Source: Candidatus Heimdallarchaeota archaeon
GTDB lineage: Archaea; Asgardarchaeota; Heimdallarchaeia; Heimdallarchaeales; Heimdallarchaeaceae
Reading direction: 5' to 3'
Assembly (NCBI GenBank): GCA_021399345.1
Contig: JAAFKI010000112.1
Location: 96,001-160,000 of the forward strand
Length of the DNA: 64,000 bases
The stretch's first letter is position 1. Each line of letters opens with the position of its first letter. A program made the translations under genes and the position numbers. The notes beneath the pieces are model-generated. The model did not search any database and was not told the DNA's origin. It saw nothing but the letters and a program-made list of their open reading frames with translations. Positions 1,633-17,698 of the stretch are shown here, one piece after another.

Positions 1633-2073
1633 TCATTTAGATTCTTCGGATATTGCTTCAGAAACTTCTGTTTTGATCGCTTCGGCTTTAACTTGTTTAA
1701 CAACAATTTTAAGTTTAGGTATCTCAGATAATCCAATCTCTTTTAGAATCTTATTGTGTTGCTTTTGGATTAGGAAGAATTTTCGTAGTTGAAACCATGA
1801 GGTTTTTACTAATAAAGGGACATCTTCAAATTCCAAAATGCAAGAATGATTGATTGTTTCATCCTTAGTTTTTGTATCTCTACCTAGAGTAGTTTTGAGA
1901 ATCAAACCACATTTAAAACAATATCTCCATCTTGCGGGATGAATAAACAGTTCGTTGTTTGTTTTAACATATGCTACAATACCTTTATCAAAAGGGATAG
2001 TCCAAAGCTCTTGAGCATATTTTTTCGCTATTTCCCGAATTTCAGATTTATCTGAAGCAAGTATATCTGGCAT
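1633..2073 (-). CDS. Uncharacterised CxxC...HxC putative Zn-binding protein, paralog 1 of 5
   Basis: ARWRYCFKCG...NHSC...PLLVKTSWFQLRKFF. Start moved to MPDIL (2073) by alignment with paralogs. Confidence 0.8.
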   Translation of the reverse strand: MPDILASDKSEIREIAKKYAQELWTIPFDKGIVAYVKTNNELFIHPARWRYCFKCGLILKTTLGRDTKTKDETINHSCILEFEDVPLLVKTSWFQLRKFFLIQKQHNKILKEIGLSEIPKLKIVVKQVKAEAIKTEVSEAISEESK

Positions 2074-2095
2074 GAGAATCACTCTTCTGTTGAGG

Positions 2096-2116
2096 GTGTA
2101 CTAGAACAAGTTACAT
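2096..2116. promoter_or_regulatory. Imperfect TGT-N13-ACA palindrome overlapping and following the TATA box of paralog 1
   Basis: Minus strand reads ttatATGTAacttgttctagTACAC; same 21-bp geometry as the operators at 14764, 14836 and 15469. Confidence 0.35.
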
Positions 2117-2205
2117 ATAAGTTTTCTTTTATCTGAAAAAACCTCTTTTTGAATCCATTGGAGTAGATTTAAGAAATAATATGCAATAACTGTTATTTGG
2201 TAAAA

Positions 2206-2742
2206 ATGTCACTTCATGATAGAGTAGAATTTTGGTTTATTTCCTTTATTCACGATAAATTATATAGTCTTTCTATGAACCCAAAAAAACTCTTGTTGCC
2301 TGCAGGTTTAAAAGAAGGAGATAATGTTCTTGAAGTAGGGTGTGGTCCAGGATTTTTCACATTACCATCTGCAGAAATTGTTGGTGACAAAGGGTTCATT
2401 TATGCTATAGATATCAATCCTTTTGCTATTAGAAAGGTTAAGAAAAAAATCGCTAAAGCTGGTGTTAAGAATGTTAAAGCTATGATTGTTGATGTAACTG
2501 AAACAACTTTGAAGGATTCCAGTATAGATATAGCTTTCTTCTTTGGTGTTATTCATTCATTATATAGTATCATTGATAGGGTCATATTAGAAATGCATAG
2601 AATCTTGAAGGACGAAGGGATAATTGCTATCCAGAAGTCAGGAAAGTCTAAGGATTGTTTGGTAGACATCATAACACAGAATAATAAGTTCAAGTTCATA
2701 GAGGAAAAAAAGAGCGTGTTAGTATTTCAAAAAATAGAATAG
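2206..2742 (+). CDS. Class I SAM-dependent methyltransferase (UbiE-like)
   Basis: VLEVGCGPGFF motif I, YAIDI, EMHRILK.GII. Confidence 0.85.
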   Translation: MSLHDRVEFWFISFIHDKLYSLSMNPKKLLLPAGLKEGDNVLEVGCGPGFFTLPSAEIVGDKGFIYAIDINPFAIRKVKKKIAKAGVKNVKAMIVDVTETTLKDSSIDIAFFFGVIHSLYSIIDRVILEMHRILKDEGIIAIQKSGKSKDCLVDIITQNNKFKFIEEKKSVLVFQKIE

Positions 2743-2802
2743 AAAAAGAGAGTAAATTAGCTCAGTTTATTCTGGAATTATTTAAAAAAAAAGATAGAAG
2801 AA

Positions 2803-3843
2803 TTACTTCTTCACAATTTTTCTACTTAACAATGTTATTGCTAAAACTGATACTGAAGTAATTGTCACTATTTCGATTACTCCAAAACCTGCTTTATCAA
2901 TTACAGGATCTTCTAATGTTCCAACTGAAGGGTCATATGTTACTTCATCATCAAAGTGCTCAAAGCTCAAGTATGTTTGGACAGAACCATCGCCTAAGGA
3001 AGAGACTGAACAATTAACTGTCTTGTATTCATAAGAATTGTTAATCAAGTATTGGGCTTGATTTGCATAAGCGAAGAATGCTTGGTATTGTTCTTCACCA
3101 ATAGAGATCTGCTCTTTTACTGCGTCTCCATGGTTGAGTACTTTGTATTCATAGCCGGTTGTGTTTTCATTTGCGTTTATAGGATTACCATTAGTATCGT
3201 TGAGTCTATAATTGTATGCTGTATTCATTGGTATGAAATCGAATCGTAATGCAAGGTTTGAATCTTCTCTTTGCCATGGCCAATTATCCATGATAATATC
3301 AAATTTCATCTCTTGACCACCCTTTAATTCATATCCATCGATTACTTGATCAGCTAGATATAGATGAACAACAATTGTGATCTCAAAATCACCATAATTA
3401 GGTGCATTGATTGTTTCAGAAGTATAGTTGAAATGAACAGCAGATAGTTCTTCAGTTCCTTCAGTATATTCAACATCAAAACCACTGAAAATGAATCTTA
3501 CACTTGATAATGGGAGTGTGTTTGAGAATACTGGACCTGGTGGAGCTTCTTCCTTCCATAAACCTGTTTCATTAAACTGGAATACTCCATCTTCATTATA
3601 ATCTAGATATTCAGTAAGTGAATGGAACATAACATTGTATTCAAATCCTGCATCTGTCATAAATTGGAATTTAGGAACTTGCCCTCCAGCTTTGGCAATA
3701 AAGTGCATGTCATAATAAGAAAATGTCACTTGGTTGTTATCTTCTATCCATAAGAAGTCTTGATCATCTGCACTTACTTGAGTAACTACAAGTAATGCTA
3801 GAAACGCTAAACCGATTGTTATTTTGATTGCTTTGTGTTTCAT
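2803..3843 (-). CDS. Secreted, C-terminally anchored cell-surface protein
   Basis: Signal peptide; KFDI.M.NWPW and YDPSVG motifs; AGFG + TM + RKIVKK tail. Confidence 0.7.
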   Translation of the reverse strand: MKHKAIKITIGLAFLALLVVTQVSADDQDFLWIEDNNQVTFSYYDMHFIAKAGGQVPKFQFMTDAGFEYNVMFHSLTEYLDYNEDGVFQFNETGLWKEEAPPGPVFSNTLPLSSVRFIFSGFDVEYTEGTEELSAVHFNYTSETINAPNYGDFEITIVVHLYLADQVIDGYELKGGQEMKFDIIMDNWPWQREDSNLALRFDFIPMNTAYNYRLNDTNGNPINANENTTGYEYKVLNHGDAVKEQISIGEEQYQAFFAYANQAQYLINNSYEYKTVNCSVSSLGDGSVQTYLSFEHFDDEVTYDPSVGTLEDPVIDKAGFGVIEIVTITSVSVLAITLLSRKIVKK

Positions 3844-3966
3844 TTTTGCTCAGCATTTCTTATTCTTCCCTTTTTGAATAGGTTCTCATTTATACAACCA
3901 AAGTTTGATTACTTTAGAAAACTAAAGTTAGTGAAAATAAGAAAAAAAGAAGAAAATAACATAACA

Positions 3967-16606: not shown

Positions 16607-16643
16607 TCATTTCACCTCTATTTGAAAATGGTAAGACTCTAGC

Positions 16644-16790
16644 TTACCCGTAAATCAGGTATTTCCTGATTGGAAATCTAGAACGAGCTTTTGCTCTTCT
16701 AGTGCGACGAGCTCTTTTGAGCTTATTCAACTCCTTGCGGAGTGCCTTAATCTTTCGGTCCAAAATTATACTTACTTCTTGTTTATACAT
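16644..16790 (-). CDS. 48-aa highly basic coiled-coil microprotein (operon B), not in the ORF track
   Basis: MYKQEVSIILDRKIKALRKELNKLKRARRTRRAKARSRFPIRKYLIYG; GAGGTG RBS; same length and DNA-level similarity to 14590..14736. Confidence 0.85.
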   Translation of the reverse strand: MYKQEVSIILDRKIKALRKELNKLKRARRTRRAKARSRFPIRKYLIYG

Positions 16791-16801
16791 TTCTTTACAC
16801 C

Positions 16802-16990
16802 TCAAATGTTTGCAAATCTCCTCAGGTTCAGGTTAGAGTAGAAGCTAATGGTTGCAGTCAGGTATTGCTCATAGATATCCAAGTTCTTGTCTGAATATCG
16901 GTTGGATAGAGTTTTCATGAGTTTATTGAGATCCTCGTAAAGTCTTCGAACCTCGGGATCCAGCAGTTTTTTTATTTCGTTTTTGTTCAT
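16802..16990 (-). CDS. 62-aa helical microprotein (operon B, first gene), distant paralog of the 48-aa proteins
   Basis: MNKNEIKKLLDPEVRRLYEDLNKL aligns with MNHDEVSNLLDQKVRGLQKELKQL; AGGTG RBS. Confidence 0.75.
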   Translation of the reverse strand: MNKNEIKKLLDPEVRRLYEDLNKLMKTLSNRYSDKNLDIYEQYLTATISFYSNLNLRRFANI

Positions 16991-17016
16991 TTTTTTACAC
17001 CTTAGGATTGGTTCTA

Positions 17017-17271
17017 TTACAGCATTGTGCAGTAACCTATTTAAGCATCGTTGTGCAGTAATAAATTACCGCATTTTGCAGTAATAAAAGAAATATTATT
17101 AAAAACGACAAAATGACCATATAGGCGATATTTATGCTTATGAACTCGTATAACCCCTTCAATAAATGCCATAAATAGGGGCAAATATTTCCGCTTAAGT
17201 GATTTTATTTGCAGTAATAATATGACTTTGGGAAATTATTACCTTGAGATATACATATATATATTACTGCA
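17017..17271. promoter_or_regulatory. Divergent promoter region with five TGCAGTAA(TA) type-B operator elements
   Basis: TTACaGCA-ttg-TGCAGTAA 17017-17035 next to TATA 17038-17044; TGCAGTAATA at 17054; TTACcGCA-ttt-TGCAGTAA from 17066; TGCAGTAATA at 17210; inverted TATTACTGCA 17262-17271 just after the TATA run of paralog 5. Confidence 0.8.
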
Positions 17272-17299
17272 AACAATAATATAGATAGGAGGTAAAATC

Positions 17300-17698
17300 T
17301 TGCCTGTAATTAAAAATGTTGAAAAAACACAAATCAAATCCAGAGCCCGTAGATATGTGCAAGATTTAGCTGATGCTCCCTTAAGTACCGGTTTAGAATT
17401 ATATAGTGAAACTATCTCAAAGCTCCATGATCGTTCTTCCCGATTGCGAATTTGTTTGAAGTGTGGAGCTATTGATAAAAAAGAGAGTCTTACTAACAGC
17501 AACCATCATTGTGCATCTGGCATTGATAAACTCCCTGTTATCATTCTTACAAACTGGGTCATTTTGAAAAATTTCTTTCTCACTGACGAATACACTAAAG
17601 CGTTGCAAAAGCTTGGCGTTGAACCAATTCTGAAGGAGTCTAGTCCAAGCAAAAATACAAAACAAAAGGAAGAATCACTTGTTGAAAAAACAAAGTAA
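17300..17698 (+). CDS. CxxC...HxC family paralog 5, divergent from operon B
   Basis: GGAGGT RBS, TTG start; RSSRLRICLKCG...NHHC...PVIILTNWVILKNFF. Confidence 0.85.
   Translation: MPVIKNVEKTQIKSRARRYVQDLADAPLSTGLELYSETISKLHDRSSRLRICLKCGAIDKKESLTNSNHHCASGIDKLPVIILTNWVILKNFFLTDEYTKALQKLGVEPILKESSPSKNTKQKEESLVEKTK

What the first reader, a model, noticed from the sequence alone, without database searches (positions are those of the whole stretch)
1633..17698. Five-member unrecognised protein family with CxxC...HxC signature, possibly a new autoregulating DNA-binding family
Genes at 1633-2073(-), 12525-12886(+, frameshifted), 12914-13390(-), 15018-15458(-) and 17300-17698(+) share the approximate consensus MPxI...K..I+..A++Y...LW..P...G...Y.ET...L..RS.R(W/L)R.C.KCG...H.C...P.L..TSW..L.DFF. 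C2HC ligands suggest one Zn site (the HxC is altered in the frameshifted copy). Every copy has an operator-like element right after its TATA box: 2096-2116, 12487-12510, ccgacat 13424-30, 15469-89 and 17262-71. That layout is typical of autorepressed archaeal regulators. I see no classical HTH or RHH. The regulator role is inference; they could instead be co-regulated effectors.
Basis: partly seen in the sequence, partly recalled or inferred. Interest (0 to 1): 0.85.

Follow-up and report, generated by a model that had tools for sequence, protein, structure and literature searches.

The report
Orphan zinc protein family in Heimdallarchaeota

Summary
The five genes are paralogs. The genome has eight copies, all on one contig, and copy 2 is broken by a -1 shift in an A-run. 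The genome is a Heimdallarchaeota MAG. The family occurs in 26 of 26 genomes of two genera and in none of about 370 other Asgard genomes. Only 24 clusters matched among 1.84 billion representatives.

No Pfam, NCBIfam, PHROG, PADLOC or PDB sequence match was found. Confident AF2 models have no structural neighbour (best Z 5.0 and 2.9). The layout is a basic helical hairpin, a CxxCG knuckle, and HxC at a helix start. This resembles a treble clef, and 89 of 94 full-length sequences keep C2HC.

The operator claim is partly right. Palindromes alone are not above chance. However, a TATA-abutting ATGT-N13-16-ACA(T/C) element occurs in 23 of 56 family promoters against 1.4% of controls. It recurs at the promoters of adjacent secreted-protein and micropeptide genes, its arms are conserved while its spacers vary, and its inner bases track the paralog clade.

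A local autoregulator role is the best reading (about 0.4) but is unproven. The proteins could instead be co-regulated targets.

Other first-stage notes of this scan cover the same family and elements, some of them on other genomes.

The parts
1633..2073 (-). Paralog 1 (146 aa, MPDIL...), intact. It belongs to the L004/p1 clade.
2096..2116 (-). 21-nt ATGT..ACAC element directly after the TATA box of paralog 1.
   Evidence: The same class is found in p1/L004-type promoters of 7 other loci, including the sister genus.
1563..1582 (-). ATGTAGCAAATACATTACAT element directly after a TATA box, in the spacer between paralog 1 and the downstream secreted beta-helix gene (187-1530).
   Evidence: Equivalent elements lie downstream of p1/L004-type genes in L027, L028 and L029.
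12525..12886 (+). Paralog 2. It is broken by a -1 frameshift in an A-run near 12609, and its HxC is replaced (..VSCHK..).
   Evidence: Intact orthologues are L012:7633-7992 and L013:7593-7946.
12487..12510 (+). TGTAC-N10-GTACA palindrome after the TATA box of paralog 2.
   Evidence: An arm of 6 occurs in 7-10% of random windows. L013 has a different palindrome at the same place.
12914..13390 (-). Paralog 3 (158 aa), with a long acidic insert between CxxCG and HxC.
13410..13431 (-). ATGTCGG half-site directly after the TATA box of paralog 3.
   Evidence: p3-type promoters of four further loci carry the ATGT..ACA[T/C] element.
14764..14856 (-). Two 21-bp type-A dyads (14764-14784 and 14836-14856) in the promoter of micropeptide cassette A. 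The first abuts its TATA box.
   Evidence: 2 of 3 sites genome-wide. (arms conserved and spacers variable in L011, L012 and L013).
15018..15458 (-). Paralog 4 (146 aa).
   Evidence: The AF2 model has pLDDT of 90 or more over most of residues 1-110.
15469..15489 (-). ATGTAGGA-N5-TAATACAT dyad after the TATA box of paralog 4. It shares the 11-mer ATGTAGGACTT with the 14764 dyad.
   Evidence: the 11-mer occurs only twice in the genome. (kept in p4-type promoters, with a variant in L014).
17017..17271 (.). Type-B array of TGCAGTAAT/ATTACTGCA sites between cassette B and paralog 5. The sites flank both TATA boxes.
   Evidence: 4 sites in about 210 bp. (conserved in 7 genomes).
17300..17698 (+). Paralog 5 (132 aa, TTG start). 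It is sister clade to paralog 4.
   Evidence: Its position next to the FAD oxidase/ETF operon is conserved in 10 loci.

Best explanation
These genes form a lineage-restricted family of small cytoplasmic zinc proteins of about 110 folded residues plus a disordered tail. They occur in two genera of Heimdallarchaeota.

Each protein has three parts. The first is a basic N-terminal helical hairpin with a K9/R13/R17 stripe. The second is a CxxCG knuckle on a beta-hairpin, with HxC at the start of a short helix; together these would hold one zinc ion in a treble-clef-like way. The third is two C-terminal helices.

I infer that they act as local transcription regulators, probably as dimers. They would bind 21-23-bp symmetric sites of the form ATGT-N13-16-ACA(T/C). 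These sites lie directly against the downstream edge of the TATA box of their own gene and of the neighbouring gene or operon. That is a position from which an archaeal repressor blocks TBP/TFB or polymerase recruitment. The neighbouring genes encode secreted beta-helix, Ig-like or beta-propeller proteins, or cassettes of coiled-coil and membrane micropeptides.

After duplication, the paralogs and their sites diverged together. The p1/L004 clade has ATGTGTC-type sites, the paralog 4/cassette A group has ATGTCG and ATGTAGGA types, and paralog 5/cassette B has TGCAGTAAT.

Shown: the family, its narrow distribution, its orphan status, the conserved ligands, and the enriched and conserved cis-elements. 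Inferred: zinc binding, dimerisation, DNA binding, and repression.
For: Family and distribution.

Orphan status.

Fold and ligand placement. The weak, non-significant Foldseek rows for the sub-domain are mostly rubredoxin, sirtuin zinc-module, ZAD and B-box entries.

Charge: the core is mildly basic (pI 8-9, net +1 to +6) and the tail is acidic or neutral.

Cis-elements:
- The type-A dyad is almost unique in the genome.
- Its arms are invariant while its spacers vary among 4 genomes.
- The TATA-abutting ATGT..ACA[T/C] element occurs in 23 of 56 family promoters against 18 of 1325 control upstream regions.
- There are 5 sites against 0.22 expected in family-gene flanks.
- The same class sits at promoters of downstream genes in this and three other genomes, with clade-specific inner bases.

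Context:
- Co-directional downstream genes carry signal peptides or membrane anchors in several paralog contexts across two genera. One pair overlaps by 4 nt.
- The family gene is the only gene shared by these loci, and no classical TF domain turned up in the neighbouring ORFs scanned.

Analogy: Brz of Halobacterium is a small zinc-finger protein encoded directly upstream of bop in the same orientation and needed for its transcription (PMC2253796, abstract seen).
Against: - There is no experimental or structural evidence of DNA binding, and the fold matches no known DNA-binding domain.
- The net charge is only mildly basic.
- Copies L003 and L005 have no element, and copies 2 and 5 have unrelated motifs.
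- The ATGT..ACAT pattern was defined after looking at the data. Promoters of paralogs and orthologues are not independent, so the enrichment statistics overstate.
- The ACA(T/C) end lies where a transcription start or initiator could be, so part of the pattern could be promoter grammar rather than an operator.
- The 48-aa coiled-coil proteins with Arg/Lys-rich tails, encoded in cassettes A and B, are alternative binders for the type A and type B sites.
- Zinc-site geometry could not be measured because no model coordinates were available.
Confidence: 0.4

Rival explanations
1. The family proteins are co-regulated effectors, not regulators. They would be small zinc-stabilised adaptor or chaperone-like proteins. 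They would work with the adjacent secreted or membrane proteins, or with the recurrent TPR proteins, for example in targeting, assembly or quality control. The shared promoter elements would be bound by another factor, such as the 48-aa basic coiled-coil micropeptides or an unlinked regulator.
For: - The family is repeatedly adjacent to signal-peptide proteins and TPR genes.
- Within orthologue groups the disordered C-terminal tails carry short conserved motifs typical of protein-protein contacts.
- There is no DNA-binding fold match.
- The 48-aa proteins are conserved next to p4/p5-type genes in the sister-genus-excluded (g1) loci sampled.
Against: - The 48-aa genes are absent from the p1/L004 loci, which carry the same class of element.
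- No other regulator gene is shared by the loci.
- The basic stripe on helix 1 is conserved across all clades.
Confidence: 0.3
2. The proteins bind RNA rather than DNA. The palindromes would be transcribed hairpins at the 5' ends of the mRNAs, and the family would control translation or stability of its own and neighbouring messages.
For: - The dyads start at the TATA edge and extend to about the expected start site, so their 3' halves may be transcribed.
- Paralog 2's palindrome is replaced by a different palindrome at the same place in L013, which would suit a structure rather than a sequence.
- Many small zinc knuckles bind RNA (general knowledge).
Against: - The 5' arm abuts the TATA box, so it should lie upstream of the start and cannot pair in the RNA.
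- Arm sequences are conserved while spacers vary, as for protein-DNA half-sites.
- Type-A and type-B sites also occur upstream of TATA boxes.
Confidence: 0.1
3. The shared element is inherited promoter grammar with no dedicated binding protein. It would be a family-specific TATA flank plus initiator, carried along by tandem duplication. The proteins would then have an unrelated function, for example metal or redox sensing next to the glutaredoxin/FAD oxidase/ETF genes.
For: - Paralogs arose by local duplication.
- The ancestral locus lies beside the FAD oxidase-ETF genes and a glutaredoxin-like gene.
- Cys/His ligands could in principle sense metal or redox state.
Against: - The element also occurs at promoters of non-homologous neighbour genes, and twice in tandem before cassette A.
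- The rest of each promoter has diverged beyond recognition between clades, while the ends and spacing are kept.
- The strict element occurs in 0.5% of control upstream regions.
Confidence: 0.15

Closest known systems
Brz (bacteriorhodopsin-regulating zinc finger protein) of Halobacterium salinarum and the C(P)XCG small zinc-finger proteins of haloarchaea (PMC2253796; PMC11241148)
   Same: Both are small archaeal proteins with a CxxCG zinc knuckle. Both are encoded directly upstream of, and co-directional with, a membrane or surface protein gene. Brz is needed for transcription of that neighbour.
   Different: There is no detectable sequence or fold relation. Brz-type proteins are about 60 aa with two C(P)XCG motifs (C4). 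This family is 112-159 aa with one CxxCG plus HxC, an N-terminal helical hairpin and a disordered tail. It is expanded to as many as 8 copies per genome and is confined to two Heimdallarchaeal genera.
Treble-clef zinc fingers (a structural class that includes GATA, nuclear-receptor, RING-like and ribosomal L24e fingers)
   Same: Two ligands come from a knuckle on a beta-hairpin and two from the first turn of a following helix (secondary structure).
   Different: No solved treble-clef domain aligned significantly (best Z 2.9 for the sub-domain). The variable 10-31-residue loop between the ligand pairs and the flanking helices are particular to this family. Ligand geometry was not measured.
Archaeal repressors whose operators overlap or abut the TATA/BRE or start site (for example MDR1, LrpA, Phr, TrmB; from general knowledge)
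   Same: Palindromic sites lie immediately downstream of the TATA box. The regulator's own promoter carries such a site, giving an autoregulatory layout.
   Different: Those regulators use HTH, wHTH or RHH domains. Here no such domain is present, and binding is only inferred.

Membership tests
Any Pfam, NCBIfam, PHROG or PADLOC family | Profile-HMM match at or above the curated threshold | tested here: not met
   There are no hits for three paralogs. The only rows are at E of 0.02 or worse and far below the cut-offs.
Classical archaeal transcription factor folds (HTH, wHTH, RHH) | Sequence or structural match to an HTH or RHH domain | tested here: inconclusive
   There is no Pfam match. No fold match stands out: the whole model gives best Z 5.0 and the sub-domain Z 2.9, both within background. 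The absence of a match does not exclude a distant relation.
Treble-clef zinc finger (structural class) | A CxxC knuckle on a beta-hairpin, with the last two ligands at the N-terminus of a helix | tested here: met
   In the AF2 models, C52/C55 lie at strand 49-52 and the following turn, and H69/C71 at the start of helix 70-74. The sub-domain model gives the same layout. The ligands are kept in 89 of 94 sequences.
Treble-clef zinc finger (structural class) | Tetrahedral zinc site with the four ligands within bonding distance, and metal actually bound | not testable with these tools
Testing this needs ICP-MS or a solved structure.
C(P)XCG small zinc-finger proteins / Brz | Two C(P)XCG motifs in a protein of less than about 70 aa | tested here: not met
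   Each member has a single CxxCG plus HxC and is 112-159 aa long.
Autoregulated DNA-binding repressor (functional class) | A specific operator in its own promoter that is conserved and beyond chance | tested here: inconclusive
   Met for the paralog 1, 4 and 5 types, and partly for type 3. Not met for L003 and L005. Dyad symmetry alone is within chance.
Autoregulated DNA-binding repressor (functional class) | The protein binds that operator | not testable with these tools
   This needs EMSA, footprinting or DAP-seq.

The most novel reading that the evidence does not exclude
The family is a previously unknown zinc-dependent DNA-binding fold that arose within Heimdallarchaeaceae. It has diversified by tandem duplication into a set of private repressor-operator pairs (ATGT-N13-ACAT variants and TGCAGTAAT). 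Each pair would control a neighbouring surface-protein gene or a cassette of coiled-coil and tail-anchored micropeptides. This would be a young, self-contained regulatory network caught in the act of expanding in the archaeal group closest to eukaryotes.
Probability: 0.3. Interest if true: 0.72.

Novelty: new variant of a known kind. Interest (0 to 1): 0.6.

Why it matters
Asgard archaea are studied mostly for what they share with eukaryotes, and their lineage-specific genes are almost unexplored. This family has four useful properties:
- It is compact and gives a confident predicted model.
- It has no sequence or structural relatives.
- It has expanded locally.
- It is tied by statistics and by cross-genome conservation to a private class of promoter elements placed where archaeal repressors act.

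If binding is confirmed, it would add a new DNA-binding fold. It would also provide a tractable case of paralogous regulators co-diverging with their operators. The predicted targets are surface proteins and membrane micropeptides, which may bear on Heimdallarchaeal cell-surface biology.

If binding is not confirmed, the family still marks a conserved regulon with an unknown regulator.

Tried and rejected
Searches that found nothing:
- Pfam, NCBIfam, PHROGs and PADLOC gave no hits.
- A profile search of PDB sequences gave only chance rows, at E of 0.076 or worse.
- Foldseek against PDB and BFVD, VIA-align wide and VIA-align second look on the whole model gave nothing above background.
- The zinc sub-domain folded alone also gave nothing.
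- The ESM Atlas feature search returned unnamed clusters at 0.90 with recognition below the reliable range, so it gave no lead.

Fused or longer forms: the exhaustive HMM search of 1.84 billion representatives returned only proteins of 57-156 aa.

Ideas rejected:
- Mobile element, virus or defence-island origin. The locus is syntenic across the genus and in the sister genus, next to the DEAD helicase, racemase and FAD oxidase-ETF genes. There are no PADLOC or viral fold hits.
- An N-terminal Pro as a catalytic residue (tautomerase-like). The Pro is not conserved in the paralog 4 clade.
- His-Me/HNH nuclease. Beyond the ligands, only K9, R48 and T84 are invariant polar residues.
- A second 'GGnAAAT..ATTTnCC' palindrome class in the promoter regions. 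My patterns did not capture it genome-wide, so I dropped it.

Other checks:
- An Rfam scan of the window and of 13800-14450 gave nothing.
- The first related-loci run on the 17-sequence alignment failed for lack of a conserved stretch.
I reran it from coordinates.
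Full report
**1. What is there**

An HMM built from the family finds eight copies in the 3.27-Mb assembly. All are on contig C41, and seven lie within 24 kb. The window is C41:96001-160000. The three extra copies lie upstream of it: L003:1501-1968(+), L004:1432-1869(-) and L005:1471-1809(-).

The invariant positions across 17 diverse members are K9, L42, R48, C52, C55, G56, I58, H69, C71, T84, W86, F92 and F93, in paralog 4 numbering.

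Copy 2 (12525-12886) is broken by the loss of one A in an A-run near 12609, compared with the intact 120-aa orthologue in L012. That intact orthologue has already lost HxC, whereas L013's keeps H-D-C. The lineage was therefore degenerating before the frameshift. A homopolymer assembly error cannot be excluded.

**2. Organism and distribution**

Related loci carry record titles of Candidatus Heimdallarchaeota MAGs such as AB_125, YT1_002 and the CSMAG series.

Among 400 genomes of the phylum, the family occurs in 24 of 24 genomes of the window's genus and in 2 of 2 genomes of a sister genus. It occurs in none of the remaining roughly 370, including four other genomes of the same family, two of them assembled as a single contig. 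Copy number is 1-8 per genome.

An exhaustive profile search of 1.84 billion representative proteins returned only 24 clusters, all of 57-156 aa, so no fused or longer forms were found. Sources give these proteins no names.

A maximum-likelihood tree resolves three old clades: L005/paralog 2; L004/paralog 1; and paralog 3 + L003 + paralogs 4/5. Each clade has a member in the sister genus, so at least three copies predate the split of the two genera. Paralogs 4 and 5 are sister groups.

**3. The protein**

There is no match in Pfam, NCBIfam, PHROGs, PADLOC or PDB sequences.

AlphaFold2 with the family alignment gives a confident core. pLDDT is about 90 or more over most of residues 1-110, and the last 33 residues are disordered. 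The order of elements is helix 6-25, helix 28-42, strand 49-52, strand 58-60, helix 70-74, strand 81-84, helix 86-93 and helix 97-104.

C52/C55 sit on the hairpin knuckle (CxxCG), and H69/C71 sit at the start of a short helix. This is the treble-clef arrangement. The sub-domain folded alone gives the same layout.

Neither model has a structural neighbour above background:
- Foldseek against PDB and BFVD gave no E of 0.001 or better.
- VIA-align wide gave best Z 5.0 for the whole model and 2.9 for the sub-domain.
- The second look gave nothing.

The weak Foldseek rows for the sub-domain are mostly rubredoxin and sirtuin zinc modules. That fits a zinc knuckle but assigns no family.

C2HC is kept in 89 of 94 full-length unique sequences, and the loop between the ligand pairs is 10-31 residues long. 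Helix 1 carries a conserved basic stripe: K9 is invariant and positions 13, 17 and 18 are mostly R or K. The core has pI about 8-9, and the tail is acidic or neutral.

**4. Genomic context**

*The ancestral locus.* In the sister genus, one copy lies between a DEAD-box helicase/racemase pair and an FAD-linked oxidase-ETF operon. In the window's genus the same interval has been expanded by tandem duplication (window 10937-18091). It now holds paralogs 2-5 together with two cassettes of micro-ORFs:
- Cassette A: 14590-14736, 14400-14543 and 13602-13826, all on the minus strand.
- Cassette B: 16802-16990, 16644-16790, 16346-16606, 15789-16205 and 15563-15712, all on the minus strand.

The 62-aa and 48-aa coiled-coil peptides and the membrane peptides are conserved next to p4/p5-type genes in the loci of this genus that I sampled.

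*The other clades.* These sit directly upstream of, and co-directional with, genes for proteins that carry signal peptides or membrane anchors:
- two NosD-like beta-helix proteins (window 187-1530 and L003:2111-3334);
- a 219-aa protein;
- in the sister genus, a 130-aa membrane protein, a 545-aa Ig-like protein and a 536-aa beta-propeller protein. The beta-propeller gene overlaps the family gene by 4 nt.

Large TPR proteins recur nearby. No classical transcription-factor domain was found in the neighbouring ORFs I scanned.

**5. The promoter elements**

As bare palindromes they are not remarkable. A perfect arm of 5 or more within an 18-23-bp span occurs in 23-30% of random 50-nt windows of this genome and in 4 of the 8 family promoters.

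Four other lines of evidence do show real cis-elements.

(a) *Rarity and clustering.* The type-A dyad ATGT[CA]G-N9-C[GT]ACAT occurs three times in the genome. Two of these are 72 bp apart at 14764 and 14836, in the promoter of cassette A. The 11-mer ATGTAGGACTT occurs only there and at paralog 4's promoter. TGCAGTAAT/ATTACTGCA occurs four times within about 210 bp before paralog 5, out of 73 copies genome-wide.

(b) *Conservation pattern.* In alignments with three other genomes, the arms of both type-A dyads are invariant while their spacers differ (CACATAGTC, CATTAAGTC, CATATGGTG). This is the pattern expected of protein half-sites. The type-B sites are conserved in seven genomes, and one of them sits directly after paralog 5's TATA run.

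(c) *Frequency across promoters.* Across 56 family promoters from 12 or more genomes, 23 carry ATGT-N12-16-ACA(T/C), always abutting a TATA-like box at -31 to -49 (one lies at -71). This compares with 18 of 1325 AT-rich control upstream regions. The positives fall in three old clades and in both genera, while the sequence between the ends differs. In this genome, ATGT-N13-14-ACAT occurs five times in 5.6 kb of family-gene flanks against 0.22 expected. With the two sites that defined the pattern removed, it is three against 0.22.

(d) *Neighbour promoters.* The promoters of the genes downstream of family genes carry the same class of element. In this genome they are at window 1563-1582 before the beta-helix gene, and two sites before the 219-aa gene. 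In L027, L028 and L029 the form is ATGTGTC..GACACAT-like. Cassette A in L024 and L026 has the ATGTCG type. The inner bases thus follow the paralog clade.

*Caveats.* The pattern was refined after inspection. Orthologous and paralogous promoters are not independent. The ACA(T/C) end may coincide with the transcription start. L003 and L005 lack the element, and paralogs 2 and 5 use other motifs.

**6. Interpretation**

The family gene is the only gene shared by loci that otherwise encode unrelated products yet carry the same promoter architecture. The sites lie where archaeal repressors act. The protein has a conserved basic helix and a zinc knuckle. The closest functional precedent is Brz, a small zinc-finger protein encoded just upstream of its membrane-protein target (PMC2253796).

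I therefore rank 'local, probably autoregulating, zinc-dependent DNA-binding regulators' first, at about 0.4. The main rival, at about 0.3, is that the proteins are members of the regulon rather than its regulator, for example adaptors for the adjacent surface proteins or TPR proteins. The sites would then be bound by the 48-aa basic coiled-coil peptides or by an unlinked factor. Against that rival, the 48-aa genes are absent from the p1/L004 loci. RNA binding and pure promoter grammar are less likely (see Rival explanations).

**7. Novelty and verdict**

The family itself is new in the sense that it has no detectable relatives by sequence or fold, and it is confined to two genera. The proposed job, a small zinc-finger regulator with a TATA-proximal operator, is of a known kind. 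I file it as a new variant of a known kind, with interest 0.6.

Other first-stage notes of this scan describe the same family and the type A and type B elements on this window. Others describe look-alike loci in other genomes, including a follow-up on a structured leader before the membrane peptides. I used these as leads and tested the motif claims myself.

Noticed in passing
window 13870-14200: The GC-rich, ORF-free stretch noted elsewhere as a roughly 400-nt ncRNA is largely an insertion of about 330 nt. The insertion is absent from the three closest relatives, including L011, which is about 99% identical nearby. It is a repeat: there is an 84%-identical 265-nt copy on contig C16, and its terminal 85 nt or so (window 14093-14177) recurs on at least 10 contigs, often at contig ends. 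It has no Rfam match. It interrupts a conserved region of about 170 nt that precedes the 74-aa membrane peptide gene.
   Followed up: partly
window 15563-15712(-) and 13602-13751(-): Two 49-aa tail-anchored micropeptides give sub-threshold Pfam hits to Synaptobrevin (PF00957, E 0.019 and 0.11). The hits cover only the juxtamembrane segment and the membrane anchor. [quoted passage not shown] Published Heimdall SNARE-like proteins come from other MAGs (LC_2 and B3-JM-08; 10.1101/810531). This is a lead only.
   Followed up: partly
window 14590-14736(-), 16644-16790(-), 16802-16990(-): These are three paralogous coiled-coil micropeptides, two of 48 aa with Arg/Lys-rich tails and one of 62 aa. They are conserved next to p4/p5-type family genes in the loci of this genus that were sampled. 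They have no Pfam match. They are candidate alternative binders of the type A and type B sites.
   Followed up: partly
window 17739-17956(-): A glutaredoxin-like gene lies between paralog 5 and the FAD oxidase operon. It is intact in L010, L013, L019 and L020 but is split by an apparent frameshift near 17801-17804 in this assembly. Together with paralog 2 this makes two frameshifts within 6 kb, so assembly errors are possible.
   Followed up: partly
window 187-1530(-), 6696-8642(-); L003:2111-3334(+): Blocks of family gene, secreted NosD-like beta-helix protein and large TPR protein are duplicated. There are two beta-helix paralogs and at least four TPR paralogs on contig C41.
   Followed up: partly
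window 10937-18091 versus L021 (sister genus): The interval between the DEAD-box helicase/racemase pair and the FAD oxidase-ETF operon holds one family gene plus a GT22 glycosyltransferase in the sister genus. In this genus it has been expanded with four family copies and two micro-ORF cassettes, so it is a local hotspot of duplication and possibly of gene birth.
   Followed up: partly
window 14943-14955 and 17150-17235: GGTAA-N3-TTACC-like palindromes lie upstream of the TATA boxes of cassette A and paralog 5 and are conserved in relatives. They may be a second class of site, for example for an activator. My genome-wide patterns did not capture them well.
   Followed up: partly
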